From IMG/VR virus record IMGVR_UViG_2877982868_000014: DNA of 64,000 nt. The stretch is one strand, 5' to 3'. This DNA comes from a virus (Duplodnaviria > Heunggongvirae > Uroviricota > Caudoviricetes). How positions within the stretch are numbered: the first letter of the stretch is position 1; each line of letters opens with the position of its first letter. The notes beneath the pieces were generated by a model. It did no database searches. It had not been told where the DNA came from and worked only from the letters and a program-made list of their open reading frames with translations. Shown piece after piece: positions 893 through 45,353 of this stretch. The translations under genes were made by a program, and so were the position numbers.

Positions 893-1090
893 GGCCGCAT
901 AACCTCCTGCTTTGTTGTTGATGCCTTTCTCATGCAATCGATCGACAAAAACGATCGATTCGATTTGTTTAATTGATACAACAAATAGATTGAAAAGTCA
1001 TCAACAATGATTCAGGGCGGTGATTATTTACTTAAAGAAAACGAAGACTTAGGTGGTGAAAACGATCATAAAATGATCATTTTATTGACT
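893..1090 (-). promoter_or_regulatory. com-mom upstream control region with clustered GATC sites in palindromes
   Basis: Four GATC sites (940, 953, 1064, 1075). Two lie in AATCGATCG-N7-CGATCGATT (936-960) and one in the 14-bp palindrome AAAATGATCATTTT (1070-1083). The position corresponds to the Dam/OxyR-controlled Pmom region of Mu. Confidence 0.5.
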
Positions 1091-1162
1091 TTTTATACAG
1101 TGAAGGTAGGATCGCGCGTATATGTAGTATGTTTCAAATCAACAGGATACTACATAAAGGGA

Positions 1163-1190
1163 GGTCCAGATAGTTACAGCTATCTGGACC
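1163..1190. repeat. perfect 11-bp inverted repeat with 6-nt spacer
   Basis: GGTCCAGATAG-TTACAG-CTATCTGGACC. It lies about 100 bp upstream of the plus-strand zinc-ribbon ORF. Confidence 0.8.
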
Positions 1191-1293
1191 TGGAACAAAT
1201 TCGCATCAATGCTTTACTTCGAGCTCGTGTCGTATCCTATGATATTCCCCGGTCTCCTGTAAAGCAGAGATGCATAAAAAGGAGATCTTTATC

Positions 1294-1464
1294 ATGGATA
1301 AAGAGCCTGTTTGCCCTGCCTGTAAGACTCCCTTACAGCTCATCTATCGCCGTTCTCGATCTCAAAATGGCAAGACATACAAACCCCAAAATGCGTCCTG
1401 TTTCAGGATGCTGATATGTCCTGCCTGTTCTCCCCGGAGGGAAAGTACACAAAACGTGCATTAA
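1294..1464 (+). CDS. small zinc-ribbon protein (56 aa), hypothetical
   Basis: ATG at 1294 preceded by AAGGAG at a 9-nt spacing. Two CPAC motifs (CPACKTP...CPACSPR). Followed by the hairpin at 1474-1493. Confidence 0.5.
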   Translation: MDKEPVCPACKTPLQLIYRRSRSQNGKTYKPQNASCFRMLICPACSPRRESTQNVH

Positions 1465-1502: not shown

Positions 1503-1748
1503 TTACATCATAGTACCGTCAGTTCCGGGCTGAACCGGCTCTGGTTGCTCTACGGCTTGAGGCTCATTCTCCGTGCTGTTTTCAGCCGGAGAATGGCCAA
1601 CCATTCGGGCCAGCACTTCATCAACATATGCGTCGATTTGTGCCTCAAAATCCTTGCGAACCTGCGCCTTCAGCACGCGGTTCACTTCTTCAGAATAAAG
1701 TGCCTGTTTGACAAGCTCTTCAGTAACCGTGCCTTTAATCTCTGGCAT
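1503..1748 (-). CDS. small acidic hypothetical protein (81 aa)
   Basis: ATG preceded by AAGGAG at an 8-nt spacing. Non-repetitive, helix-prone, acidic sequence. The opposite-strand ORF 1416-1877 looks like a shadow ORF. Confidence 0.6.
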   Translation of the reverse strand: MPEIKGTVTEELVKQALYSEEVNRVLKAQVRKDFEAQIDAYVDEVLARMVGHSPAENSTENEPQAVEQPEPVQPGTDGTMM

Positions 1749-1783: not shown

Positions 1784-1966
1784 TCAGAGCGGGGTCGGGT
1801 CGTTTGGGGATGACGGTGCCTGTGCTGTTTTACTGAGTTTTTCAGCTGCCGCATCATCAATTTTACGGCGAATATAATTTCTGATGACCTTATAACCGCC
1901 GCTCACCAGATATAACGCACTGACCACTGCGCAGAAATAAAGCAGCATTGTATGAACGAATGTCAT
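1784..1966 (-). CDS. small membrane protein (60 aa, one N-terminal TM segment, basic then Pro/Ser tail)
   Basis: ATG preceded by AAGGTAAGG. Hydrophobic stretch MLLYFCAVVSALYLVSGG followed by KVIRNYIRRK. Confidence 0.55.
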   Translation of the reverse strand: MTFVHTMLLYFCAVVSALYLVSGGYKVIRNYIRRKIDDAAAEKLSKTAQAPSSPNDPTPL

Positions 1967-2078: not shown

Positions 2079-2114
2079 TCCCGCCAGCCATATCATGACC
2101 GGCGGGATTTTTTT
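2079..2114 (+). terminator. intrinsic terminator, plus-strand orientation
   Basis: TCCCGCC-N15-GGCGGGA followed by T7. The T-run overlaps the stop codon of the minus-strand esterase gene. Confidence 0.6.
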
Positions 2115-4152
2115 ATTCTGTTACCGCTTTTTTCACTTCCACCACAATGCTGTCAATCAGCACCGGGTAAGTTGCATTTTTTGTGATATCCGTTACGCGG
2201 AGTTTGTCCACCGGGAAAGTTCCTACTGGTGACTGCGTCAGGGTAAACGCGGCACCATCCTGACCATCAATAACCGGAATAACCTGAAGGCTGTTATTTC
2301 CTGCAAAACGGAAGGCCAGCGTATGCCATTCATTATCAAATGCACCAAAGGTTCCCAGTTTCTGGTTATTTGTTGCCACTTTTGCATTGTGGTACATCAC
2401 ATTCAGGTCTTTTGCGTCTGTCTGGATGTAGAACGATGCCAGCAGATTATTCCCTGCATCCCCTGTCAGGGTGACACCCTGCGGCAGAGAGGAAACCGGC
2501 CAGTAAAGCGCCATGACATACTGGTTTGCCACCAGGTCGCCCGGTACTTTAAAACGACAACTGATTAAACCACCATTTTTCAGCAGTTCAGCACCAGTAC
2601 CGGCATCATGATCCAGATACCAGGATGATTTACCTGTTTCCTTGGTCAGTTTCATTGCCTTACCACCTGTGCCTCCTGCATCACTGATAATTTCAGCTTT
2701 ACCGCCAGCCGGCTCCCAGCCCTGGGCTTTCAGATTTCCTTCTGACTCACTGACACGGTAAGACAGCAGTGTTGTGGTTACTGCTTCAGTTTCTGAAGGT
2801 GACGGCACTGGTGCTTCAGTTTCAGAAGATGGAACATCGGCTTTTACTGTGGTTCGCCCCGCATGAGTCAGAACTGCCGTGGCCAGACGGTCGGAAATAA
2901 TCCCACGACGTGCCCATGAACTGAAATGGCTGGCCCGGTCCGTAGATGTCCAGGTGGCGGCACTGTTACGCCACGTTGAGCCGTAATAACCAATGGATTC
3001 AATATCCGGGTCTTCTGCCGGATTGTTGGTGGGTACATTCGCGCCATTTTCATCTGTCATTAATGGGACGAAATGAATGTTTTTATCTGTTTTATTTTTG
3101 TAGCCGTCATAGATTGCCTGGTATGCCTGTTCGTTTTTCTGTTTCCAGAAATACGTGGTATCACCACAAATCCACGGAACGCCAGCAGCACTGCCACCGG
3201 TACACTGTTCCGCCTGTTCAGCCAGGTCTGCGCGGAATTTTTCCACCATCGCCAGAAACAGCGCAGAATGCTCCGTCGGCTTCGCATCAATATCAAACTC
3301 GCCCTGCATCCACACCACAGCAAGCAGGCGGTTTTTCGGGTTCTTCGCCAGTGCCGCTTTTGTCCGGCTGATTAAGTCCTTATACAGCGGCTTATCCACA
3401 CCCCAGCGGGCTGAGTCCTCTGAAGCACCCGTGCTGTCACTGTACGTGCCGTCAGCACCCGCCGTGAATGCAGAACCACCACGGCAGCAGGGAACCAGCA
3501 GAATCCCCGCATCTGCCGGAATAAACGGCAGCAGTTTTTTGGCAATGTGAAGCCCCTGACCCACGGTGCCATATTGCCCTTTAGCCACATCCGCTTTCGG
3601 GTGATTTTTTCCACTCATATCCTGCACATCATGCAGACAGTGGTCGGCCAGAATGATGTCGTTATACTGACAGGCTTTACCTCCCGGCGTGACTGTACTG
3701 CGACGGGCTAACTGCATAATACGCGGTTCGGGGCGGTCATATGTCTCCGGCAGTGGCAGACCTTCACCGTAAGCCATACCGTTTGACTGACCAGCAAGAA
3801 CCACCACGTAATACCAGGAAGGGGAGCTGGAAGCAGTTTCATTTCCTGACGGACGGGTATGTGTTTCAGCATTATCCCAGTCTGACGGTTCAGCAGTACC
3901 GGCAACATCAGCACTTAACGGAATGACCGCACCAATACCCGCTCCGGTAATTTCCACACTCGGATCACCGGATACTGGCCTTACCCACAGGCAATCCCGT
4001 GTATTAAAACTGATGAGACAGTCAGCAAATGTCATTCCTCCTTTTGTTTCGGCCGGAGGAAAGGGAGCCTCAAGAAATGCCGCTGTACCACCGGAAACTT
4101 TAACAGTAAAGTTTCCGGGCATTGATGATAGTTGAACCCATTTGGACGTCAT
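2113..4152 (-). CDS. SASA/DUF303-family carbohydrate esterase (NanS-like sialate O-acetylesterase) with C-terminal lectin-like domain
   Basis: 679-aa ORF. Catalytic-type blocks VVVLAGQSNGMAYG and VVWMQGEFD are typical of the sialate O-acetylesterase family. The C-terminal ~190 aa resemble a LamG/concanavalin-type fold (inference). Mu has no gene between gin and com. Confidence 0.7.
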   Translation of the reverse strand: MTSKWVQLSSMPGNFTVKVSGGTAAFLEAPFPPAETKGGMTFADCLISFNTRDCLWVRPVSGDPSVEITGAGIGAVIPLSADVAGTAEPSDWDNAETHTRPSGNETASSSPSWYYVVVLAGQSNGMAYGEGLPLPETYDRPEPRIMQLARRSTVTPGGKACQYNDIILADHCLHDVQDMSGKNHPKADVAKGQYGTVGQGLHIAKKLLPFIPADAGILLVPCCRGGSAFTAGADGTYSDSTGASEDSARWGVDKPLYKDLISRTKAALAKNPKNRLLAVVWMQGEFDIDAKPTEHSALFLAMVEKFRADLAEQAEQCTGGSAAGVPWICGDTTYFWKQKNEQAYQAIYDGYKNKTDKNIHFVPLMTDENGANVPTNNPAEDPDIESIGYYGSTWRNSAATWTSTDRASHFSSWARRGIISDRLATAVLTHAGRTTVKADVPSSETEAPVPSPSETEAVTTTLLSYRVSESEGNLKAQGWEPAGGKAEIISDAGGTGGKAMKLTKETGKSSWYLDHDAGTGAELLKNGGLISCRFKVPGDLVANQYVMALYWPVSSLPQGVTLTGDAGNNLLASFYIQTDAKDLNVMYHNAKVATNNQKLGTFGAFDNEWHTLAFRFAGNNSLQVIPVIDGQDGAAFTLTQSPVGTFPVDKLRVTDITKNATYPVLIDSIVVEVKKAVTE

Positions 4153-4251
4153 AATAATCAGCCTGTTCCTGAATAAACTGAATTATCATATCCACAGACC
4201 GATAAACGCCATTTTGCGTTAATTCAGTAAAGGCCCAACAAAGAGAGCGTC

Positions 4252-4812
4252 TTATTTTTCCGAAACGCTCGCAGGATAATAACGATAAAGGGTTGAAAGA
4301 CCGATATCAAAAATAAGTGCCACCTGTCTTCGACTGACACCCCCGGCCAGTAAACGCCCGACCTGCTCGTATTGTTCCTGCGTGAGACGGCGGGGTCTGC
4401 CGCCGGTTCGTCCCCTTTCACGGGCAGCTGCAAGACCAGCCCGTGTCCGTTCGACAATTAATTCACGCTCCATTTCTGCCAGCGCACCCATTATGTGAAA
4501 AAAGAAGCGCCCCATGGGGGTTGACGTATCAATGTTGTCAGTAAAACTACGAAAATTTATCCCCTGTTGCTGTAATTCATCTGTCAGCGCAACAAGGTGG
4601 CGCATACTGCGCCCCAGCCTGTCCAGTTTCCAGACCATCAGCGTGTCACCGGGTTTTAGTTTCTTCAGTGCCCGCTTCAGTCCCGGCCGCTGTGTCGTTT
4701 TACCACTCATTTTGTCTTCAAAAATCTGCTCACATCCTGCACATTCCAGCGCATTTCTTTGTAAACCTGTGTTCTGGTCATTTGTTGATACGCGTATATA
4801 GCCAATCAGCAT
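4252..4812 (-). CDS. gin: Gin/Hin/Pin-family serine DNA invertase
   Basis: 186 aa. MLIGYIRVSTNDQNTGLQ... carries the catalytic Ser motif, with a C-terminal HTH. Adjacent to the gix site at 4867-4892. Confidence 0.93.
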   Translation of the reverse strand: MLIGYIRVSTNDQNTGLQRNALECAGCEQIFEDKMSGKTTQRPGLKRALKKLKPGDTLMVWKLDRLGRSMRHLVALTDELQQQGINFRSFTDNIDTSTPMGRFFFHIMGALAEMERELIVERTRAGLAAARERGRTGGRPRRLTQEQYEQVGRLLAGGVSRRQVALIFDIGLSTLYRYYPASVSEK

Positions 4813-4866
4813 GTATTTACCTTCCTTAAAAAGAGGTGGAAAGGCCTTTTAAAGCAGATATACGGC

Positions 4867-4892
4867 ATCCCTGAAACCTCGGTTTACGGGAT
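4867..4892. other. gix-type recombination site (gin-proximal)
   Basis: ATCCCTGAAACC-TC-GGTTTACGGGAT. Imperfect dyad resembling Mu gix/hix sites. The central TC matches its partner at 6293-6318 in inverted orientation. Confidence 0.75.
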
Positions 4893-5246
4893 ACGGTAAA
4901 CAGGGCCGCGAATGCCCTGCCATCAAACGGTACGGCTGTTGCAGCAAGCAGGCTGGCAAATGCCCGCAGAATCAATGGTGTCGCCTTTGACGGCACGCAG
5001 GATATAAACATTACGTCAGGAATGCCGGAATCAACGGCCAATCAGCGTTATGTTACAGGGGTAAGACTGGGAGCGCAGGCATTAAGCGGCGGACTGGAAT
5101 ATAATTACTCCCTGTCATCAGGAAATGTGATTACCGGTTTTAAGACTAACGGAGACTGGGAAATGCGTGGTGGTGATGACCGTGTTTATTACAGACAGAT
5201 ACAATATTGTATTAATGGGCATTGGGTATCCGCTGCAAGTATTTAA
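4881..5246 (+). other. silent alternative tail-fibre C-terminal cassette (S'v), promoterless in this orientation
   Basis: Open frame from the gix core: GLRDTVNRAANALPSNGTAVAASRLANARRINGVAFDGTQDINITSGM...YYRQIQYCINGHWVSAASI. It is homologous to the expressed end GLRETVNKAADALPSGGTAVAANRLATPRNINGVPFDGTQDINITSGM... Inversion would keep the reading frame. Confidence 0.7.
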
Positions 5247-5367
5247 TTAACGGGGGCATAGCACACAGCAGCCAGCATCTGAAATATGCGTTATTTCAGA
5301 CAAGCATTGCCTGTATATGGCGATAGTATTATTCCTGTTTTTATCATTGATTTACATGGTGATGTTT

Positions 5368-5889
5368 ATGCAACTGATTAATGTCAAACGATATTACCCG
5401 AAAGACAAACCCTATGGTGAGGATGTTCAGTATTTCCAGAGTGAGGACGGAAGGGATTTTTATGAATCTATCCCGCTTTTCACAAAGAAATACAAACTCT
5501 GTATTTCGCCTGTAACGGGTATTATCTGCTCTGTTGCTGAAGATGTCTCTGCTTTATATCCGGCAGGTTTTACTGTTGTTGAAGTGGACGAACTGCCGGA
5601 AGGTGTGAATATTGACGGTAACTGGCAGTTTTCTGATGGCCTGATATCAAAGGTGCCGGTAAACTGGAAGACGGTTGCTGAAAAGCGTCGCTCATCGCTG
5701 CTCCAGGAAGCCAACGAAACCGTGGATGACTGGAAAACAGAATTAAAACTGGACATGATTAGCGATGAAAATAAATTACAGCTGACGCGCTGGATGGCGT
5801 ATATCCGACAGCTTAAAGAAATGCACTTTAATGATATTGCCAGTGAGGGGCATTACCAGGCGATTCCCTGGCCGGAAAAACCGGAATAA
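5368..5889 (+). CDS. tail fibre assembly protein (Mu U / Tfa family), coupled to the silent cassette
   Basis: From MQLINVKRYYPKD... Motifs ISDENKLQLTRWMAYIRQL and the C-terminal WPEKPE are typical of U/Tfa chaperones. Currently antisense to the late operon. Confidence 0.8.
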   Translation: MQLINVKRYYPKDKPYGEDVQYFQSEDGRDFYESIPLFTKKYKLCISPVTGIICSVAEDVSALYPAGFTVVEVDELPEGVNIDGNWQFSDGLISKVPVNWKTVAEKRRSSLLQEANETVDDWKTELKLDMISDENKLQLTRWMAYIRQLKEMHFNDIASEGHYQAIPWPEKPE

Positions 5890-5923
5890 TTCAGAGGGTG
5901 CATTCAGCACCCTTTTCTGTGGT

Positions 5924-6835
5924 TTACACTGAACTTACCGATCTCCAGGCATTATTAATATAAATCTGAACCGGGCGATAATAGACCCCACCGATATTGT
6001 CCGCAGACCGGGAGCCGGTTTCCTGCACGTTAATACCGGAAAGCATACAACCGGAAGGTGCGCTGTAATTCCATGATATTTCATTGCCTCCGGGTGAATG
6101 ATAGCTCTGTGCTCCAAGCTGAACATTCTGTACATACCGGCCATCTGCGGTTGACTGCGTCATTCCTGACGTGATGTTGATATCCTGCGTTCCGTCAAAA
6201 GGAACGCCATTAATATTTCTTGGGGTGGCGAGTCTGTTTGCTGCCACGGCGGTTCCACCCGATGGCAGGGCATCAGCAGCCTTATTTACCGTTTCCCGTA
6301 AACCGACGTTATCGATAAAAGCGCCTTTATCCGGAATGTCTGCGCCGTTCTGCTCCCTGCGCAGGTAACGGTTATCACCTTCGCTCCTGCTGTAAACATC
6401 CAGATTATTACGGGCGGTTTCCGCATTCTCCAGGTCGGCAAGGTTCTGATCCTTCGCCAGGGCATTAACGTCAGCGGGACCAAGACTGTTTTTTGTGGCA
6501 AGCGTCCCCAGACCAAGATAACCACGGGCCAGACGCTGGGCTTCCGCACCGGCATCAGCAATTTCTTTCAGGTTGTTTTTCCGGGAAAAGGCATTCGCAG
6601 CGATAATGGCTTTAATGGACAGCGTAAGCTGGTTTAACTGCGCCTTATCCGGCTGAATACTGGCTTCAGCCAGAATATTCAGCAGTTCGGCCTGGAGAAT
6701 ATTCAGCCAGTCCTGACCAATCCAGCTGATACCTTTTTGTCCGTCACCTTCGGTAAACCAGGTGGTGGTATTACTCTGCGCCGGAGCCAGTTCAGGCATA
6801 TTCGCCACGCCGGAATTATTATCAACATGGAACAT
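5924..6835 (-). CDS. tail fibre protein S (constant part plus currently joined variable end)
   Basis: Start MFHVDNNSGVANMPELAPAQ... at 6835 (TAATG overlap with the upstream gene). The gix site lies at codons V195/G196 of the ORF-track numbering. Confidence 0.85.
   Translation of the reverse strand: MFHVDNNSGVANMPELAPAQSNTTTWFTEGDGQKGISWIGQDWLNILQAELLNILAEASIQPDKAQLNQLTLSIKAIIAANAFSRKNNLKEIADAGAEAQRLARGYLGLGTLATKNSLGPADVNALAKDQNLADLENAETARNNLDVYSRSEGDNRYLRREQNGADIPDKGAFIDNVGLRETVNKAADALPSGGTAVAANRLATPRNINGVPFDGTQDINITSGMTQSTADGRYVQNVQLGAQSYHSPGGNEISWNYSAPSGCMLSGINVQETGSRSADNIGGVYYRPVQIYINNAWRSVSSV
6293..6318. other. gix-type recombination site inside S
   Basis: TTCCCGTAAACC-GA-CGTTATCGATAA. 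Inverted relative to 4867-4892, with 13 consecutive identical bases in one half-site. Confidence 0.7.
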
Positions 6836-7395
6836 TAAATAGTCTCCTCTTCGTGACTGTTTGCATATACGTAAATAAACGTCTGCCATGCAGGCTTATA
6901 ACGGTTCAGAATACATTCCAGCGCACCACCCTCATAAATACGCAGCGGGGTGAGAATATCATCCAGCACATTCATATTCCGGTAGCCGGTTTCACTGTTT
7001 ATCGTGACAATACTGACCCACTGTGAATCCGGTGATGGCTGAATATCTATTTCATAACCAAACTCTGCCGCAAACCGGATATAAAATTCACGGTTAAGAG
7101 AGGGTTTCATCCGGTATTTATTCCCTGCATAACGCTGACGTTCCTGAATGGTTGCGCCGGTCATATCACATTCCGGTAACCCCAGATAACGCTCCCAGTC
7201 TTCCAGCAGCAGACGGGATGAATCAGGAAAACGTTCTGCCAGCATCTGGTTACCGGTCCAGGAAACACGCTCCGTGGAATGACTGAGGCCCAGGCACAAA
7301 GCTGCAAGAACGGATGACGGCCGCTTATCCCATGCCAGCCCGTCAGGCAGCAACTGCAACAGGGCGCGCTGATGCGGGGTCAGGGTTACAGCCAT
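6835..7395 (-). CDS. baseplate/tail protein, Mu gp48-like (DUF2313-type)
   Basis: 186 aa. Positioned between the baseplate J-like gene and S, with overlapping stop/start codons. Confidence 0.75.
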   Translation of the reverse strand: MAVTLTPHQRALLQLLPDGLAWDKRPSSVLAALCLGLSHSTERVSWTGNQMLAERFPDSSRLLLEDWERYLGLPECDMTGATIQERQRYAGNKYRMKPSLNREFYIRFAAEFGYEIDIQPSPDSQWVSIVTINSETGYRNMNVLDDILTPLRIYEGGALECILNRYKPAWQTFIYVYANSHEEETI

Positions 7396-8471
7396 GTGAT
7401 TTCCCCCACAGTCAGCAACTCTGTATCTCCGGCCATCACGGACTTCAGCGGACTGCGAACTTCAAAATCCTCCAGTCCTTTCACCCCTGCAACAGCCCGC
7501 CAGAATGATGAAGGCAATACAAGTCCACCCGGCCGCGATTCGTTATAAAGCAGGTCCGTTAATGCCTGTTTTACGGCAGCCTGATTTTCCGGCGTTTTGG
7601 GTACAATCCTGATCTCAAACGCCACCGGCTTATTGGTCAGCTTAAACACGCTGATTGTCGGCCCAAGTGGCTGACCAACGGGCTGGCCCGTCGCCGGATC
7701 ATCATGACTGCGGATATAATCCGCCACCCGCTTCACATCACCTTCTCCGGGGAAAATGTCAGGGTTATTATCCTGAACAAAAGTCACACCAACACTACCC
7801 GCCTCAGGCCATTCAGGCTTACACCATGCCCGCGTCACGCCCGGTACTTCCCGTGCCCAGCGTTCAAAATCATACTGTGTTCCCCCTGATGGCGGGTTCT
7901 GTACCCGGAATACCAGCCTGGACAGCAACTCCGGCACCGTTTCCACATCCGCACCACCGGTGAGTCCCGTGCCGGTAACCGTGGCTGTCTGGTTGATGCC
8001 CGCCTGTGGCGTGATAAAGGACAGGCGGGTTCCGGTCGGGGTATTTCCGGCGCGCCCCGCACTTTCCGCCTCCACATTAACATTCAGTGTTCCGGCTTTT
8101 CCGGTCGCAGAGCCGGTGATGCGGTACACAACACCATCGCTTCGCTGAAGGAGTACGCCTTCCGTGATCCCTGCATCCGTGGTCAGCATCAGTTGTACCG
8201 GTCCGTCAGCGCGGGAAGCCGGTTTACGGATGACACCCCAGAATGCGCAGTGTTTCAGGAGTTCGGCTTCATCAGCTTCTGTCGGAATTATCTGCCGGGA
8301 GATCCAGGCCAGATGTTCATGCTCCTGTGCTGACAGACCCGCCAGTGCATACGCAATGGCATTCAGGGTGGTTTCATTCACGCCCGGCTGCGAACCGGGC
8401 AGGCGCTGGCTGATATCCTGTTGTGTCTGTGTGATCAGTTGCGCCAGTGGTAAGGGCTGATAAGGCATCAT
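7386..8471 (-). CDS. baseplate J-like protein (Mu gp47-like)
   Basis: 361 aa. Recognisable baseplate J family sequence and synteny. Confidence 0.8.
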   Translation of the reverse strand: MMPYQPLPLAQLITQTQQDISQRLPGSQPGVNETTLNAIAYALAGLSAQEHEHLAWISRQIIPTEADEAELLKHCAFWGVIRKPASRADGPVQLMLTTDAGITEGVLLQRSDGVVYRITGSATGKAGTLNVNVEAESAGRAGNTPTGTRLSFITPQAGINQTATVTGTGLTGGADVETVPELLSRLVFRVQNPPSGGTQYDFERWAREVPGVTRAWCKPEWPEAGSVGVTFVQDNNPDIFPGEGDVKRVADYIRSHDDPATGQPVGQPLGPTISVFKLTNKPVAFEIRIVPKTPENQAAVKQALTDLLYNESRPGGLVLPSSFWRAVAGVKGLEDFEVRSPLKSVMAGDTELLTVGEITWL

Positions 8472-27603: not shown

Positions 27604-28104
27604 TCAGACTTTCGGCAAATCGTAGCGACATAACCATTCATCCGCCGAACGGCGGGCCTCAAGGCCGGGGAGCTTCACCCCCTTTGAATAAATCCAGCGG
27701 ATATACTGCTTACAGGACGCGGGCATCTGCCCGGCATTGATCAGGCGCAGAAGCGTGGAGTTGCGAAAGTTCGTTTCACCGGCCCAGAAGATCCACGAAG
27801 CCAGCGCCACCGTCTGACCACGGGTAAGCGGCACCTGAACACGCCGATCAATGGCCGCAAAGGCCCATTTCATGTCCTTTTCCAGTAGTTCCAGGCATTC
27901 TTCATCCGTCAGGGTCATACCCGGTTTCACATCCGGGCCGGTATGGCCGTAACAGATGGTGGGTGTACCGGTGGGATCGATATACGTGGAGTTTTCTTTC
28001 CCTTCCCAGTAACCGGTGTAATGCGTGGCAATCGTGAACGTCCCGGCACCGGCCAGAACAAGGGCAATCAGCTTTTTACGCAGTGGTGCGGGGAGTTTTG
28101 GCAT
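27604..28104 (-). CDS. lys: SAR-type endolysin (T4 lysozyme family, Mu gp22-like)
   Basis: 166 aa. Gly/Ala-rich N-terminal signal-arrest-release-like segment LIALVLAGAGTFTIA. Catalytic E-8-D-5-T pattern in WEGKENSTYIDPTGTPT. Confidence 0.85.
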   Translation of the reverse strand: MPKLPAPLRKKLIALVLAGAGTFTIATHYTGYWEGKENSTYIDPTGTPTICYGHTGPDVKPGMTLTDEECLELLEKDMKWAFAAIDRRVQVPLTRGQTVALASWIFWAGETNFRNSTLLRLINAGQMPASCKQYIRWIYSKGVKLPGLEARRSADEWLCRYDLPKV

Positions 28105-28175: not shown

Positions 28176-28601
28176 TCAGAAAAGTGGCGGTTGTGTTCTT
28201 GCCAGATGCAGACGGCGCTGTTCACGTATGACGGTATAAATCTGGGTTTCTGACATCCGGTAATGGCGGCGAAGGGATTCAATTTTCTCGCCCCGGTCCC
28301 AGCGCGAAAATATCTCATTGTTTCGCAGCTCGGCAAAGAGAGATTCCCCGACCGGCAGGTAATAACCCCGTCCGCCCATATAGGCTGCCTGAGCCGCAGC
28401 CACCTTGCGTGCCAGTTTGCCGGCCAGTACCGGCTCAATCCCCTGACGCTGAAGTTCTGCGCCGGTGACTTCAACCAGTTCTGACAGGGTCCGCGGCCAG
28501 TTCTTTTTGAGAACATCATCAGGGATGTCATCAAGGCGGTCGATAAGGGCGTGCAGTTGCTCACTGTCACCACCAAACATGCTCATCTGAGTTTCTGCCA
28601 T
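28176..28601 (-). CDS. mor: Mor/C-family transcription activator
   Basis: 141 aa. C-terminal HTH region ...IESLRRHYRMSETQIYTVIREQ is typical of the Mor family. GGAGG SD. Confidence 0.8.
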   Translation of the reverse strand: MAETQMSMFGGDSEQLHALIDRLDDIPDDVLKKNWPRTLSELVEVTGAELQRQGIEPVLAGKLARKVAAAQAAYMGGRGYYLPVGESLFAELRNNEIFSRWDRGEKIESLRRHYRMSETQIYTVIREQRRLHLARTQPPLF

Positions 28602-38943: not shown

Positions 38944-39135
38944 GCGCCATCGCTATCATGAGGTGGTGCTGTAAATACATATAGAGATCATATGACTCAT
39001 CCCAAGATAATCACGCTATTGAATAGTAATTCATGATGATTATCATACTGATTATAGTTAGATCGATTATGTGAGCATTTTGGCAGTTTGAAGATGTTTT
39101 GAAGATGTTTTGAAGAAGATTTTAAGGGTAAATTA

Positions 39136-39300
39136 GCAGTATCAAATGTGTCGCCGTTTTTTGATCTTTTGACTATTTGTTGAGCAGTCGGTATCAAAAA
39201 GAGTTTTCCGTCCGAAGTATACATCACCTGTTTTATTTCAGCATCTTACAGGTGATTTCACCTCCTTTCACTAAAACCCTTGTCGGTATCAAATGATTCA
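39136..39300 (-). repeat. Mu-type left end with three transposase-binding-like repeats
   Basis: TTTGATACCGAC at 39282-39293 and 39187-39198, variant ATTTGATACTGC at 39136-39147 (minus-strand reading). Terminal dinucleotide TG at 39300. Confidence 0.7.
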
Positions 39301-39767
39301 CCTGGTTACAGGCAATCCATGCCCCGGCGCTGGATCGCGGCGCGGCTCTTGGCGCACTGATGCGTCTGGAACATCCCAACGCTAGTGCCGAAGCGGCGCT
39401 GACGATGCTGGCGCAGTTATCCCCGGCACAATCCGGCGAAGCGCTGCACGGTTTGCTGGCGCTGGCCCGCCATCAACTGGCCTGTCAGCCGGCATTTATC
39501 GCCGGTTTCAGCAGTCATTTAAATCAACCAAGTGATGCCGATTTTATCAATGCCCTGCCCGATTTACGCGCGGCGATGGCCTGGCTACCGCCACGAGAAC
39601 GCGGGACACTGGCGCATCAGGTGCTTGAACATTATCAACTGGCGCAACTTCCCGTTTCGGCGCTGCAAATGCCGTTGCATTGCCCACCACAAGCCATTGC
39701 ACATCATCAACAACTCGAACAGCAGGCACTGGCATCGCTGCAAAACTGGGGAGTTTTCCATGTCTGA
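39301..39767 (+). pseudogene. yehM: yehM 3' fragment, truncated by the Mu-like prophage
   Basis: Frame open from the junction (...WLQAIHAPALDRGAALGALMRLEHPNAS...NWGVFHV). Its end overlaps the yehP start as in the E. coli yehLMPQ operon. No upstream part is present. Confidence 0.75.
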
Positions 39768-44150: not shown

Positions 44151-44333
44151 CCTGTTTACCTCTTTCTCAGGGAGTTTAGTCTCCAGGATTTCCGGGGCGG
44201 TTCAGATGAAATAGTGCTTTTTACTAAGAGTTCTACTCCAGTTCCGGACTGCTCACGCCACGGTATTAGGCATATCCTATATAGCCCCTGGTGAGAGTCA
44301 CCAGTTCCTTGATTAAATAAAATGGAGTTTTAC

Positions 44334-44795
44334 ATGAAGGCTTTCAATAAGCTGTTTTCCCTTGTTGTTGCATCTGTTCTGGTTTTTTCTCTTGCTGGCT
44401 GCGGTGACAAAGAAGAATCGAAGAAATTCAGCGCCAATCTGAACGGCACTGAAATTGCCATTACCTATGTCTACAAAGGTGACAAGGTGCTTAAGCAATC
44501 TTCTGAAACCAAAATTCAATTTGCCTCCATTGGTGCTACCACCAAAGAAGATGCTGCCAAGACACTTGAGCCGTTAAGCGCCAAATACAAAAACATCGCG
44601 GGTGTTGAAGAAAAATTAACCTATACCGATACCTACGCGCAGGAAAACGTGACTATCGATATGGAAAAAGTGGATTTTAAAGCCCTGCAGGGTATTTCAG
44701 GAATCAACGTTTCTGCTGAAGATGCCAAAAAAGGTATCACTATGGCGCAAATGGAACTGGTGATGAAAGCCGCTGGTTTTAAAGAAGTGAAATAA
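44334..44795 (+). CDS. yehR: YehR lipoprotein (DUF1307)
   Basis: 153 aa from MKAFNKLFSLVVASVLVFSLAGC, with a lipobox. Confidence 0.88.
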   Translation: MKAFNKLFSLVVASVLVFSLAGCGDKEESKKFSANLNGTEIAITYVYKGDKVLKQSSETKIQFASIGATTKEDAAKTLEPLSAKYKNIAGVEEKLTYTDTYAQENVTIDMEKVDFKALQGISGINVSAEDAKKGITMAQMELVMKAAGFKEVK

Positions 44796-44801
44796 TCTGT
44801 C

Positions 44802-44827
44802 GGCGGCCATGTTTGCGCATGGCCGCC
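44802..44827. terminator. hairpin between convergent yehR and yehS
   Basis: GGCGGCCATG-TTTGCG-CATGGCCGCC, a 10-bp stem with no clear U-tract. Confidence 0.4.
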
Positions 44828-44836
44828 ATACCCGTC

Positions 44837-45307
44837 TTAGCTTTTCTTCACATGCTGGCGCGCTGCCAGTCCACGCAGAAAATAACGTAAAAATTGATCG
44901 CCGCATTCGCGGAAGTTTTTATGATCCGGTGCACGCATCATCGCCGTAATTTCCGGCATCGAAACGCGGAACTGCTGTTCGGTGAGGATCGCCAGAATGT
45001 CATCGGTTTTCAGCGAAAACGCGATGCGTAATTTTTTCAGCACGATGTTGTTATTAATGCGACGTTCCGGCTCCAGTGCCGGAGCAGACTCATCCTTGCC
45101 GCGTTTTTCATAAATCAGGCCATTGAGGAATGACGACAAAACAATGTCCGGACAACGCTGAAAACCCTCTTCGTCTTCTTTACGTAGCCAGACGGCGATC
45201 TGTTCCGCGGTGGCTTCGACATTACCCAGCGCCAGTATACGCACCAGGTCATTATTATTGGCTTTCAAAATGTAGCGCACGCTGCGCAGAATATCGTTAC
45301 TTAGCAT
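44837..45307 (-). CDS. yehS: YehS (DUF1456)
   Basis: 156 aa from MLSNDILRSVRYILKANNNDL. Confidence 0.85.
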   Translation of the reverse strand: MLSNDILRSVRYILKANNNDLVRILALGNVEATAEQIAVWLRKEDEEGFQRCPDIVLSSFLNGLIYEKRGKDESAPALEPERRINNNIVLKKLRIAFSLKTDDILAILTEQQFRVSMPEITAMMRAPDHKNFRECGDQFLRYFLRGLAARQHVKKS

Positions 45308-45353
45308 GAGGCCTTCAGGTGTTGATGAGGCAAAAAGCCATTTTAGCAGTCTT

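What the first reader, a model, noticed from the sequence alone, without database searches (positions are those of the whole stretch)
4867..6318. Asymmetric Gin-invertible segment: two alternative fibre tips but only one tail-fibre assembly gene
Inverted gix-like sites (4867-4892 and 6293-6318, both with a central TC) bracket about 1.4 kb. In the present orientation S is fused to a 123-aa tip ending at 5924, and no tfa/U gene follows it. The only U-family chaperone (5368-5889) lies on the other strand behind the silent alternative tip (4881-5246), so it would be co-expressed only after inversion. Mu and P1 carry a chaperone for each orientation (Sv-U / U'-S'v). The two tips are homologous through ...DGTQDINITSGM and again at the extreme C-terminus (YYRPVQIYINNAWRSVSSV versus YYRQIQYCINGHWVSAASI). 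Three explanations are possible: one orientation yields chaperone-less fibres, the expressed tip folds autonomously, or a U gene has been lost.
Basis: partly seen in the sequence, partly recalled or inferred. Interest (0 to 1): 0.55.

Follow-up and report, generated by a model that had tools for sequence, protein, structure and literature searches.

The report
One-chaperone invertible phage tail-fibre switch
A Mu-like prophage of E. coli O157:H7 carries a compact DNA-inversion switch that swaps two tail-fibre tips but has only one fibre-assembly chaperone gene, and comparison with relatives suggests that this one chaperone serves both tips rather than one state being defective.

Summary
Two gix-like 26-mers (4867-4892, 6293-6318) bracket a 1,428-bp segment beside an intact Gin homologue. 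S is now fused to tip A (stop at 5924). A silent tip B (4881-5246) and the only Tfa gene in 64 kb (5368-5889) lie on the other strand. Closed E. coli genomes hold both orientations (181 versus 26), so the switch works.

The asymmetry is not a local accident. All roughly 210 RefSeq E. coli copies and 30 IMG/VR copies of this Sp18-like family have one tfa. Tip A is under purifying selection (dN/dS about 0.1).

A lineage that lost gin and the silent tip is locked with tfa antisense to S. It has still inserted into three different host genes, and its tfa remains intact and constrained.

The closest outside homologue of this Tfa (Rac-SA53, 51%) directly follows a tip-A-like fibre. The same Tfa type occurs with five different tips.

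My best explanation (about 0.5) is that tfa is an orientation-independent transcription unit that serves whichever tip is expressed. It has a 55-121-nt leader, its own Shine-Dalgarno sequence and a hairpin shared with S. No promoter was identified, so expression is inferred.

This is a new variant of a known kind and of moderate interest.

The parts
6835..7395 (-). gp48/YmfQ-family baseplate wedge gene, immediately upstream of S (context)
   Evidence: Pfam Phage_Mu_Gp48 at 2e-22. RefSeq annotates it as a YmfQ family protein.
6307..6838 (-). Constant N-terminal part of tail-fibre gene S (Sc), outside the invertible segment
   Evidence: 48% identical to Mu S residues 1-191, PDB 5YVQ_A, at 1.5e-48. 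phrog_1833 tail fibre at 2e-165 for the whole S.
6293..6318 (.). S-proximal gix-like crossover site, inside the S reading frame
   Evidence: The reverse complement TTATCGATAACGTCGGTTTACGGGAA matches Mu gix at 22/26 positions. It is one of only two such sites in 64 kb.
5924..6306 (-). Tip A, the variable C-terminal tip now fused to S (the expressed state). The end coordinate includes the stop codon at 5924-5926.
   Evidence: It lies in frame with Sc. It is 60% identical to the SfMu gp52 tip, 66-72% to the Rac-SA53 tail1 tip and 47% to P2-like H tips. dN/dS is 0.08-0.12 against relatives.
5893..5915 (.). GC-rich hairpin between the convergent stop codons of S/tip A and tfa. It is a candidate two-way terminator.
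   Evidence: The terminator scan flags it. Folding energy is -16.5 kcal/mol on the plus strand and -14.7 on the minus strand, with z-scores of -3.8 and -3.0. Hairpins of different sequence occupy the same place in M18 and in the O91 strain.
5368..5889 (+). tfa, the only tail-fibre assembly (U-family) gene. It is antisense to S in the present orientation.
   Evidence: Pfam Caudo_TAP at 1.9e-18, phrog_136 at 3e-57, and PDB 5YVQ_B (Mu U) at 1e-15. It is 51% identical to Rac-SA53 tail2. It is the sole Tfa in the window.
5247..5367 (+). 121-nt leader between the tip B stop and the tfa start. It has its own Shine-Dalgarno sequence (GGTGA) and a perfect dyad, CTGAAATA-TGCGT-TATTTCAG, at 5279-5299. 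I propose it as the site of an independent tfa promoter or control element, but no promoter was identified.
   Evidence: The last 95 nt or so are conserved in the gin-less lineage, where the flanking DNA is unrelated. Family leaders are 121, 79 or about 55 nt, against 2-12 nt in Mu, SfMu, P2, 186 and Rac-SA53. Only weak sigma-70-like matches were found.
4881..5246 (+). Tip B, the silent alternative tip, which has no start codon of its own. It would be fused to Sc after inversion.
   Evidence: 54% identical to tip A and 59% identical to the Mu S tip (PDB 5YVQ_A residues 436-503, 2e-21). It is expressed as an S fusion in O157 strain Z869 and other genomes.
4867..4892 (.). gin-proximal gix-like crossover site
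   Evidence: ATCCCTGAAACCTCGGTTTACGGGAT matches Mu gix at 19/26 positions. Its central TC is inverted relative to the other site.
4252..4812 (-). gin-like serine DNA invertase
   Evidence: Pfam Resolvase at 5.8e-51 plus HTH_7 at 1.7e-14. 74.6% identical to Mu Gin over 181 aa.
4879..6306 (.). The invertible segment (1,428 bp), measured between the central dinucleotides of the two sites
   Evidence: An in-silico inversion at these coordinates matches 26 closed E. coli genomes end to end, for example O157:H7 Z869 at 99.2% in one piece. The present orientation matches 181 genomes.

Best explanation
This is a compact, one-chaperone version of the Mu G-segment host-range switch. A Gin-family invertase recombines two gix-like sites, one of which lies inside the tail-fibre gene S. 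Inversion fuses the constant part of S to either tip A or tip B.

Unlike Mu, P1 or e14, the segment carries a single tfa gene. I propose that this tfa is its own transcription and translation unit. Its features are a 55-121-nt leader, its own ribosome-binding site, and a hairpin shared with the convergent S gene. On this view Tfa is made in both orientations and folds or caps whichever tip is expressed. All the tips share the Mu-S-type C-terminal domain.

Shown here:
- the sites, the genes and the single tfa;
- natural inversion;
- family-wide conservation of the layout;
- purifying selection on tip A and on tfa;
- spread of a lineage locked with tfa antisense to S.

Inferred here:
- that tfa is transcribed independently of the S operon;
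- that one Tfa acts on both tips.
For: 1. The switch is real and active. The gix sites and Gin are present. Both orientations occur in closed genomes at 99% identity or more.

2. One tfa is the rule for the whole family.
- Every RefSeq E. coli copy spans the same length.
- None of 30 IMG/VR family loci has a second tfa, although classical two-tfa segments with a 54-56% identical Tfa exist elsewhere.

3. Tip A is functional. dN/dS is 0.08-0.12 over dS 0.27-1.8, with no stop codons.

4. A gin-less lineage is locked with tfa antisense to S.
- It lost gin and most of the silent tip.
- Its members share one deletion junction, 96-97% identical over 423 nt.
- It is inserted in three different host genes.
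- It carries either a tip-A-like tip or tip D.
- Its tfa is intact, with dN/dS of 0.11-0.16.

5. The Tfa type fits tip A. Its nearest outside relatives (Rac-SA53 and more than 40 IMG/VR loci) sit directly downstream of tip-A-like fibres.

6. Tfa proteins are not tightly tip-specific.
- This Tfa clade is found with tips A, B, C, D and E in mosaic combinations.
- The near-identical Tfa C-termini of Mu U and SfMu gp51 serve a B-like and an A-like tip respectively.

7. The family-specific long leader with its own Shine-Dalgarno sequence, and the hairpins between the convergent stop codons in all variants, fit a separate convergent unit.
Against: - No convincing promoter was found upstream of tfa. 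Only weak sigma-70-like matches (8.5-10.5 of 12) lie in the 3' end of the silent tip or its remnant. The region as a whole has 8 such matches against 4.4 expected by chance.
- The three leader types share little sequence.
- No motif shared with the phage's late-promoter regions was seen, and the Mu C box TTATN6ATAA is absent from the window.
- Purifying selection on tfa in the locked lineage could partly reflect alleles imported by recombination from invertible relatives.
- O91-type prophages have a 97% identical tip A but only a 64% identical Tfa. This shows no tight co-evolution of tip A and Tfa.
- No expression or protein data were available.
Confidence: 0.5

Rival explanations
1. Tip A, and tip D in relatives, folds without any Tfa. 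The tfa gene serves only the tips that lie upstream of it on the same strand (B, C, E) and is silent in the present orientation.
For: - tfa is always co-linear with tips B, C or E and always convergent with A or D.
- No promoter for tfa was identified.
- Tip A is 97% conserved between prophages whose Tfa is only 64% identical.
- The tfa-antisense orientation is the commoner one.
Against: - Every homologous tip outside the family (SfMu gp52, P2-like H, Rac-SA53 tail1 and more than 40 IMG/VR loci) is followed within 2-12 nt by a tfa.
- The nearest relatives of this very Tfa are paired with tip-A-like fibres.
- In the gin-less lineage, which has no tip left for tfa to serve in cis, tfa stays intact with dN/dS of 0.11-0.16.
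Confidence: 0.22
2. The present orientation cannot supply its own Tfa. Virions made in this state either lack working fibres (an 'off' state) or depend on Tfa supplied in trans. The trans source would be sister copies that flipped during lytic replication or other prophages in the cell.
For: - tfa is antisense to the late S transcript here.
- O157 strains carry many lambdoid tfa genes. This is background knowledge and was not tested here.
Against: - The locked gin-less lineage cannot flip, yet it is found inserted in three different host genes with different tips.
- Tip A is under strong purifying selection.
- About 85% of genomes sit in this orientation.
- Lambdoid Tfa N-terminal, fibre-binding domains are unrelated to this one. 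Only distant matches were seen.
Confidence: 0.1
3. A second tfa (the U equivalent for tip A) was recently deleted from this particular prophage, which is therefore a decaying relic.
For: The segment (1.43 kb) is about 0.5 kb shorter than would be needed for two tips plus two tfa genes. Mu, SfMu, P1 and some IMG/VR relatives have two.
Against: - The same layout and length are present in all family members examined, which are divergent.
- Only 34 nt lie between the two stop codons, and there is no tfa remnant.
- The literature predicts Sp18 to be intact and reports its DNA as efficiently packaged (PMC2669165).
Confidence: 0.03

Closest known systems
Phage Mu G segment (Sc, Sv-U / U'-S'v, gin), with SfMu and D108
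   Same: - The gene order is the same: gp47, gp48, S, invertible segment, gin, then com and mom.
- One crossover site lies inside S.
- The gix cores are 19-22/26 identical to Mu gix, and Gin is 74.6% identical to Mu Gin.
- Sc is 48% identical to Mu S residues 1-191.
- Tip B is 59% identical to the Mu S tip.
- The Tfa belongs to the same Pfam family.
   Different: - The segment is 1.43 kb against about 3 kb in Mu.
- The tips are about 122 aa against about 330 aa.
- There is only one tfa, about 30% identical to Mu U and U'.
- A 121-nt leader precedes tfa, against a 2-nt gap in Mu.
- A NanS-p-like esterase cassette lies between gin and com/mom.
Sp18, the Mu-like prophage of E. coli O157:H7 Sakai, and its relatives
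   Same: This is the same prophage family. The FORC_044/Sakai-type copies share Gin, Tfa (98%) and tip A (97.5%). [quoted passage not shown]
   Different: Sakai-type copies carry tip C instead of tip B upstream of tfa, with a 79-nt leader. I found no published statement about the single tfa or its consequences.
Escherichia phage Rac-SA53 tail1/tail2 and P2/186-type H-G (K-tfa) pairs
   Same: These phages carry the closest outside homologue of the Tfa (51% to Rac-SA53, 39% to 186). The Rac-SA53 Tfa is paired with the closest outside homologue of tip A (66-72%).
   Different: These pairs are not invertible. The fibre and tfa genes run in the same direction, 2-12 nt apart, and each tip has its own tfa.
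Other invertase-switched fibre loci: P1 C segment, e14 P segment (pinE), the Pantoea tailocin locus and carotovoricin Er
   Same: A serine invertase swaps the C-terminal tips of a fibre (P1 shows two Tfa matches; Pantoea; carotovoricin as described in PMC13195805).
   Different: P1 carries a tfa for each orientation. The Pantoea locus is described as potentially encoding an additional chaperone. That e14 has two tfa genes is my own recollection and was not checked here. I could not read the carotovoricin Er primary paper (PMC100113 is not held), so its chaperone arrangement is unchecked.

Membership tests
Gin/Hin/Cin/Pin serine DNA invertases | Resolvase-type catalytic domain plus a C-terminal HTH_7 domain, with close similarity to a characterised invertase | tested here: met
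   PF00239 at 5.8e-51 and PF02796 at 1.7e-14. 74.6% identical to Mu Gin over 181 aa. The N-terminus MLIGYIRVSTNDQ holds the conserved serine.
Gin/gix inversion system | Two 26-bp gix-type sites in inverted orientation with identical central dinucleotides | tested here: met
   The sites at 4867-4892 and 6293-6318 match Mu gix at 19/26 and 22/26 positions. The central TC is in inverted orientation. They are the only two such sites in 64 kb, and none of 100 shuffles gave two.
Gin/gix inversion system | The segment is found in both orientations in nature | tested here: met
   181 closed E. coli genomes match the present orientation and 26 match the in-silico inverted one. These include O157:H7 strains at 99% identity or more in each state. 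IMG/VR holds about 15 tfa-antisense and about 5 tfa-sense loci.
Gin/gix inversion system | Fis-dependent recombinational enhancer (sis) in the 5' part of the invertase gene | not tested
   The first 120 nt of gin are about 79% identical to Mu gin. I did not map Fis sites, and enhancer function needs an experiment.
Mu/P1-type G/C segment architecture (Sv-U / U'-S'v) | A tail-fibre assembly gene downstream of each alternative tip, so that each orientation co-transcribes tip and chaperone | tested here: not met
   The segment and the whole window hold only one Tfa. 34 nt separate the tip A stop from the tfa stop. The antisense ORF is not conserved. Mu and SfMu have two.
Mu/P1-type G/C segment architecture (Sv-U / U'-S'v) | A crossover site inside the fibre gene, so that a constant N-terminal part is fused to alternative C-terminal parts | tested here: met
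   S reads in frame through 6293-6318 into tip A. In Z869 and others the same Sc is fused in frame to tip B.
Tail-fibre assembly proteins (Pfam Caudo_TAP, Mu U / P2 G / lambda Tfa) | Sequence membership in the family | tested here: met
   PF02413 at 1.9e-18 (cut-off 22.1 bits, score 67.3). phrog_136 at 3e-57. PDB 5YVQ_B (Mu U) at 1e-15.
Tail-fibre assembly proteins (Pfam Caudo_TAP, Mu U / P2 G / lambda Tfa) | The protein is required for folding or trimerisation of the cognate fibre tip and binds it | not testable with these tools
   Only indirect evidence is available: homologous tips elsewhere always have an adjacent tfa, and tfa is under purifying selection.

The most novel reading that the evidence does not exclude
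The Sp18-like phages have reduced the Mu host-range switch to a minimal cassette. One 'universal' Tfa is transcribed convergently to the fibre gene from its own orientation-independent promoter, and the two units end at a shared hairpin. This Tfa chaperones at least five interchangeable about-120-aa tips (A-E) through their common C-terminal domain. Chaperone supply would then be uncoupled from the inversion state, which has not been described for any invertase-controlled fibre locus.
Probability: 0.45. Interest if true: 0.5.

Novelty: new variant of a known kind. Interest (0 to 1): 0.42.

Why it matters
Invertible fibre segments are the textbook example of phage host-range bet-hedging. The accepted design pairs each alternative tip with its own chaperone.

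A widespread family, found in roughly 4% of complete E. coli genomes including many STEC, manages with one chaperone. If that holds up, chaperone specificity lies in the conserved distal domain rather than in the variable receptor-binding surface. Chaperone expression can also be uncoupled from the switch.

This is useful for engineering phages or tailocins with swappable short tips and a single helper gene. It also bears on predicting the host range of Mu-like prophages that move genes among pathogenic E. coli.

It does not overturn anything. It refines a known mechanism and gives a clear, cheap experiment.

Tried and rejected
- Promoter search upstream of tfa. The consensus scan and my own scan across ten variants gave only weak sigma-70-like matches. 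I do not count them as evidence.
- Test of the leader dyad CTGAAATA-N5-TATTTCAG as a phage activator box. It occurs only once in the window.
- Search for the Mu C box TTATN6ATAA, which I confirmed in the Mu and SfMu Pmom regions. It is absent from the whole window. Inspection by eye of the Mor-lys intergenic region, the com upstream region and other gaps showed no motif shared with the tfa leaders.
- Rfam search over 4100-7000. Nothing was found.
- Hidden second chaperone antisense to tfa. A 130-codon open stretch exists here but collapses to 67 codons or fewer in O91- and M18-type alleles, so I rejected it.
- A second Tfa elsewhere in the window. None was found.
- The genome contigs survey. 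It returned only distant relatives. Several (Photorhabdus, Symbiopectobacterium, Sodalis, Arsenophonus) looked like invertase-tip-tfa remnants but were degraded, so I did not use them.
- Literature. No paper discussing a single-tfa invertible segment turned up. One search call failed on term length. The carotovoricin Er primary paper is not held.
- I did not run structure prediction. A monomer model of a trimeric tip would not tell whether it depends on a chaperone.
Full report
**What the window is**

Bases 4200-6900 are 100% identical to E. coli O157:H7 strain Z1813. There the region belongs to a Mu-like prophage inserted in puuB. The phage's late genes lie on the minus strand, in this order:
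- gp47 (7386-8471) and gp48 (6835-7395);
- tail-fibre gene S (6838->5924);
- a gin-like invertase (4812->4252);
- a 679-aa DUF6645/SASA esterase;
- DUF1378 and DUF826 genes;
- com and mom.

This is the Sp18 family of O157 Sakai. [quoted passage not shown]

**Checking the observation**

The inverted repeat is real. Its arms, 4875-5053 and 6132-6310, are 179 nt long and 75% complementary.

The two 26-mers are ATCCCTGAAACC-TC-GGTTTACGGGAT and, on the other strand, TTATCGATAACG-TC-GGTTTACGGGAA. They match Mu gix (TTATCCAAAACCTCGGTTTACAGGAA) at 19 and 22 of 26 positions. A degenerate core pattern finds exactly these two sites in 64 kb, and none of 100 shuffles gave two.

The invertase has the Resolvase and HTH_7 domains and is 74.6% identical to Mu Gin.

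S reads in frame through the right-hand site into a 122-aa tip, which I call tip A. The silent tip B (4881-5246, plus strand) is 54% identical to it.

The ORF 5368-5889 (plus strand) is a Tfa. It matches Pfam Caudo_TAP at 1.9e-18, phrog_136 at 3e-57 and Mu U in PDB 5YVQ at 1e-15. It is the only Tfa in the window.

Only 34 nt, holding a hairpin, lie between the stop codons of S and tfa. A long antisense open stretch inside tfa is not conserved in relatives.

Mu and SfMu do have a tfa behind each tip, 2 nt downstream.

**Does the segment invert?**

I built the inverted version in silico, with the crossover at the central dinucleotides (4879-6306), and searched complete E. coli genomes.
- The present orientation is matched over at least 80% of the query by 181 genomes.
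- The inverted orientation is matched by 26 genomes.
- The inverted set includes O157:H7 strain Z869 at 99.2% in one piece, where PGAP annotates S-tip B followed by tfa.

Both states therefore exist in near-identical prophages. The inner half-sites are identical, so these comparisons cannot place the exchange point more precisely than the shared core.

**Is the single tfa a local defect?**

It is not. Every family member I inspected has the same layout:
- Sakai-type FORC_044;
- an O91:H21 strain at about 83% DNA identity;
- CP55_Sichuan;
- a Mu-like insertion inside an Stx2c phage.

In a spread listing of all RefSeq hits, every full-length hit spans the same length as the query.

In IMG/VR, 30 family loci (Tfa at least 60% identical) have no second tfa. 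Three more distant loci (Tfa 54-56% identical) are classical two-tfa segments. More than 40 Rac-SA53-like loci have a fibre gene and tfa running in the same direction.

**Is tip A functional?**

Tip A has no stop codons in any lineage. Its dN/dS is 0.10 against the Stx2c-phage copy (dS 1.08), 0.12 against O91 (dS 0.27), and 0.08 between those two (dS 1.8). The orientation without a co-transcribed chaperone is also the commoner one, at 181:26 in RefSeq and roughly 15:5 in IMG/VR.

**Would tip A be expected to need a chaperone?**

Its homologues elsewhere are the SfMu gp52 tip (60%), P2-like H tips (47%) and Rac-SA53 tail1 (66-72%). Each is followed within a few nucleotides by a tfa.

Tip A and tip B both align with the distal domain of Mu S that was crystallised with Mu U (5YVQ). 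According to North et al. 2019, as summarised in PMC9608196, the Mu Tfa binds the distal fibre through its N-terminal domain, drives trimerisation through its C-terminal domain, and stays on the virion.

**Which tip does this Tfa 'belong' to?**

The closest phage homologue of the window's Tfa is Rac-SA53 tail2 (51% identity over the full length). It sits directly behind the tip-A-like tail1. The same pairing recurs in more than 40 IMG/VR contigs.

Within the family, the Tfa clade is combined with five tips in a mosaic way:
- tip B + Tfa + tip A (this window);
- tip C + Tfa (98%) + tip A (Sakai type);
- tip C + Tfa (96.5%) + a tip A variant that is 80% identical;
- tip B (88%) + Tfa (64%) + tip A (97%) (O91 type);
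- tip E + Tfa + tip D.

Outside the family, Mu U and SfMu gp51 have near-identical C-termini, yet they serve a B-like and an A-like tip respectively.

Tfa proteins of this kind are therefore not tied to one tip. All these tips share the motifs RYV..(V/I)(R/Q)LG, G.(V/M)(L/I)(T/S)G and YYR(P/Q)(V/I/L)Q..(I/L)(N/D)G.W.

**The most informative relatives**

E. coli M18, M3, M1, CI5, JE86-ST02 and S1-CAM-01-A, plus seven IMG/VR contigs, lack gin and most of the silent tip. In these the order is the DUF6645 gene, about 300 nt, tfa on one strand, and then S on the other, converging on it.

The stretch upstream of tfa contains a truncated remnant of a tip 3' end followed by the same about-95-nt leader as in the window. 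The junction region is 96-97% identical over 423 nt in all of them. They therefore descend from one deletion that locked the segment with tfa antisense to S.

Since that deletion the lineage has done three things:
- It has diverged by 3-4% in this non-coding stretch.
- It has come to carry either a tip-A-like tip (JE86-ST02) or tip D (M18, CI5).
- It now sits in three different interrupted host genes: a type I restriction R subunit gene, xdhA, and at citF. This is the signature of separate Mu-type transposition events.

Its tfa is intact, with dN/dS of 0.11-0.16 among the three (dS 0.22-0.43).

A phage permanently in the 'chaperone-antisense' state is therefore transmissible and still keeps its tfa under constraint.

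**Interpretation**

Together these results argue that tfa is used in the present orientation, and so must be transcribed from the plus strand independently of the S operon. Three anatomical features fit this:
- Family members have a 121-, 79- or about 55-nt leader with its own Shine-Dalgarno sequence between the upstream tip and tfa. Mu, SfMu, P2, 186 and Rac-SA53-type loci have 2-12 nt.
- Every variant has a stable GC-rich hairpin between the convergent stop codons, although the hairpin sequence differs (-14.5 to -16.5 kcal/mol).
- The leader is retained in the deletion lineage, where the flanking DNA is unrelated.

What I could not show is the promoter itself. Only weak sigma-70-like matches occur. 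The leader's perfect dyad at 5279-5299 is unique in the window. The Mu C box is absent from this phage, which has a single Mor/C-like activator. I saw no shared late-promoter motif. Rfam finds nothing. Independent expression is therefore an inference from comparative data, and I put the shared-chaperone model at about 0.5.

**Rivals**

An autonomous tip A (0.22) remains possible. tfa is always co-linear with tips B, C or E and convergent with A or D, and tip A does not co-vary with Tfa. However, this rival does not explain why the locked lineage keeps tfa.

An 'off' or trans-complemented state (0.10) is hard to square with the locked lineage and with selection on tip A.

A recent loss of U (0.03) is contradicted by the family-wide layout and the absence of any remnant.

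The remaining probability covers arrangements I have not thought of.

**Comparison with known systems, and novelty**

Functionally this is a Gin/gix host-range switch of the Mu G-segment kind. It meets the tests for the invertase, the sites, the in-frame fusion and natural inversion. It fails the defining architectural feature of 'a tfa for each orientation'.

The element as such is already known as the invertible region of Sp18. The single shared chaperone, the convergent layout and the locked derivative lineage are not described in any paper I could find. I could not read the carotovoricin Er paper.

I class it as a new variant of a known kind, of moderate interest. It gives a clear testable prediction and has some engineering value, but it involves no new principle.

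Noticed in passing
window 2113-4152 (-), with 1784-1966 (-) and 1503-1748 (-): A 679-aa protein with a sialate O-acetylesterase (SASA) domain and a C-terminal DUF6645 domain (phrog_143) sits between gin and com/mom, where Mu has nothing. Small DUF1378 and DUF826 genes follow it. From my own recollection (not checked here), this looks like the NanS-p-type esterase cassette of Stx/lambdoid prophages, here carried as cargo by a Mu-like phage.
   Followed up: partly
L041 (E. coli M18), L043 (CI5), L044 (JE86-ST02); IMG/VR L059-L063, L065, L070: A sub-lineage of the same prophage family has lost gin and most of the silent tip through one shared deletion. It is locked with tfa convergent to S and is found in three different interrupted host genes. 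STEC2017-197 (L045) instead has a frameshifted invertase. SCU-171 (L046) has a fragmented S.
   Followed up: yes
window 5279-5299 (+): A perfect dyad, CTGAAATA-TGCGT-TATTTCAG, lies in the tfa leader. It is conserved in the type-1 leaders, including the gin-less lineage, and is unique in the window. It has no T-run, so it is not an obvious terminator. Its role is unknown.
   Followed up: partly
window 28176-28601 (-) and the whole prophage (about 1-39,100): The prophage has a single Mor/C-family activator gene just upstream of the lysozyme gene (27604-28104). It has no TTATN6ATAA box (the Mu C-binding motif seen at Mu and SfMu Pmom) anywhere in 64 kb. Its late-promoter recognition must therefore differ from Mu's.
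   Followed up: partly
window about 38,950-39,531, and upstream of position 1 in the source genome: The prophage interrupts puuB. The 3' fragment is at window 39121-39531 and the 5' fragment lies beyond the window start. The putrescine utilisation operon is therefore split in this strain.
   Followed up: no
window about 44,243-47,227 (ycjM, ycjN): RefSeq annotates the host genes ycjM (frameshifted) and ycjN (internal stop) as pseudogenes in the identical O157:H7 genome.
   Followed up: no
window 4826-5011 (-) and 1007-1464 (+): RefSeq calls a 61-aa 'hypothetical protein' antisense to the silent tip and across the gix site (4826-5011). It is probably spurious. A plus-strand ORF between DUF826 and com (1007-1464) is annotated as frameshifted.
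   Followed up: no
IMG/VR loci L115, L124, L130: These are classical two-tfa invertible segments. One tfa is 54-56% identical to the window's and the other is P2 G-like. They show that this Tfa clade also occurs in the standard Mu-type architecture.
   Followed up: no
L007 (LC727881, Stx2c-converting phage): A member of this Mu-like family is inserted inside an Stx2c-converting lambdoid phage genome. It has the same one-tfa segment and a tip A variant that is 80% identical.
   Followed up: partly
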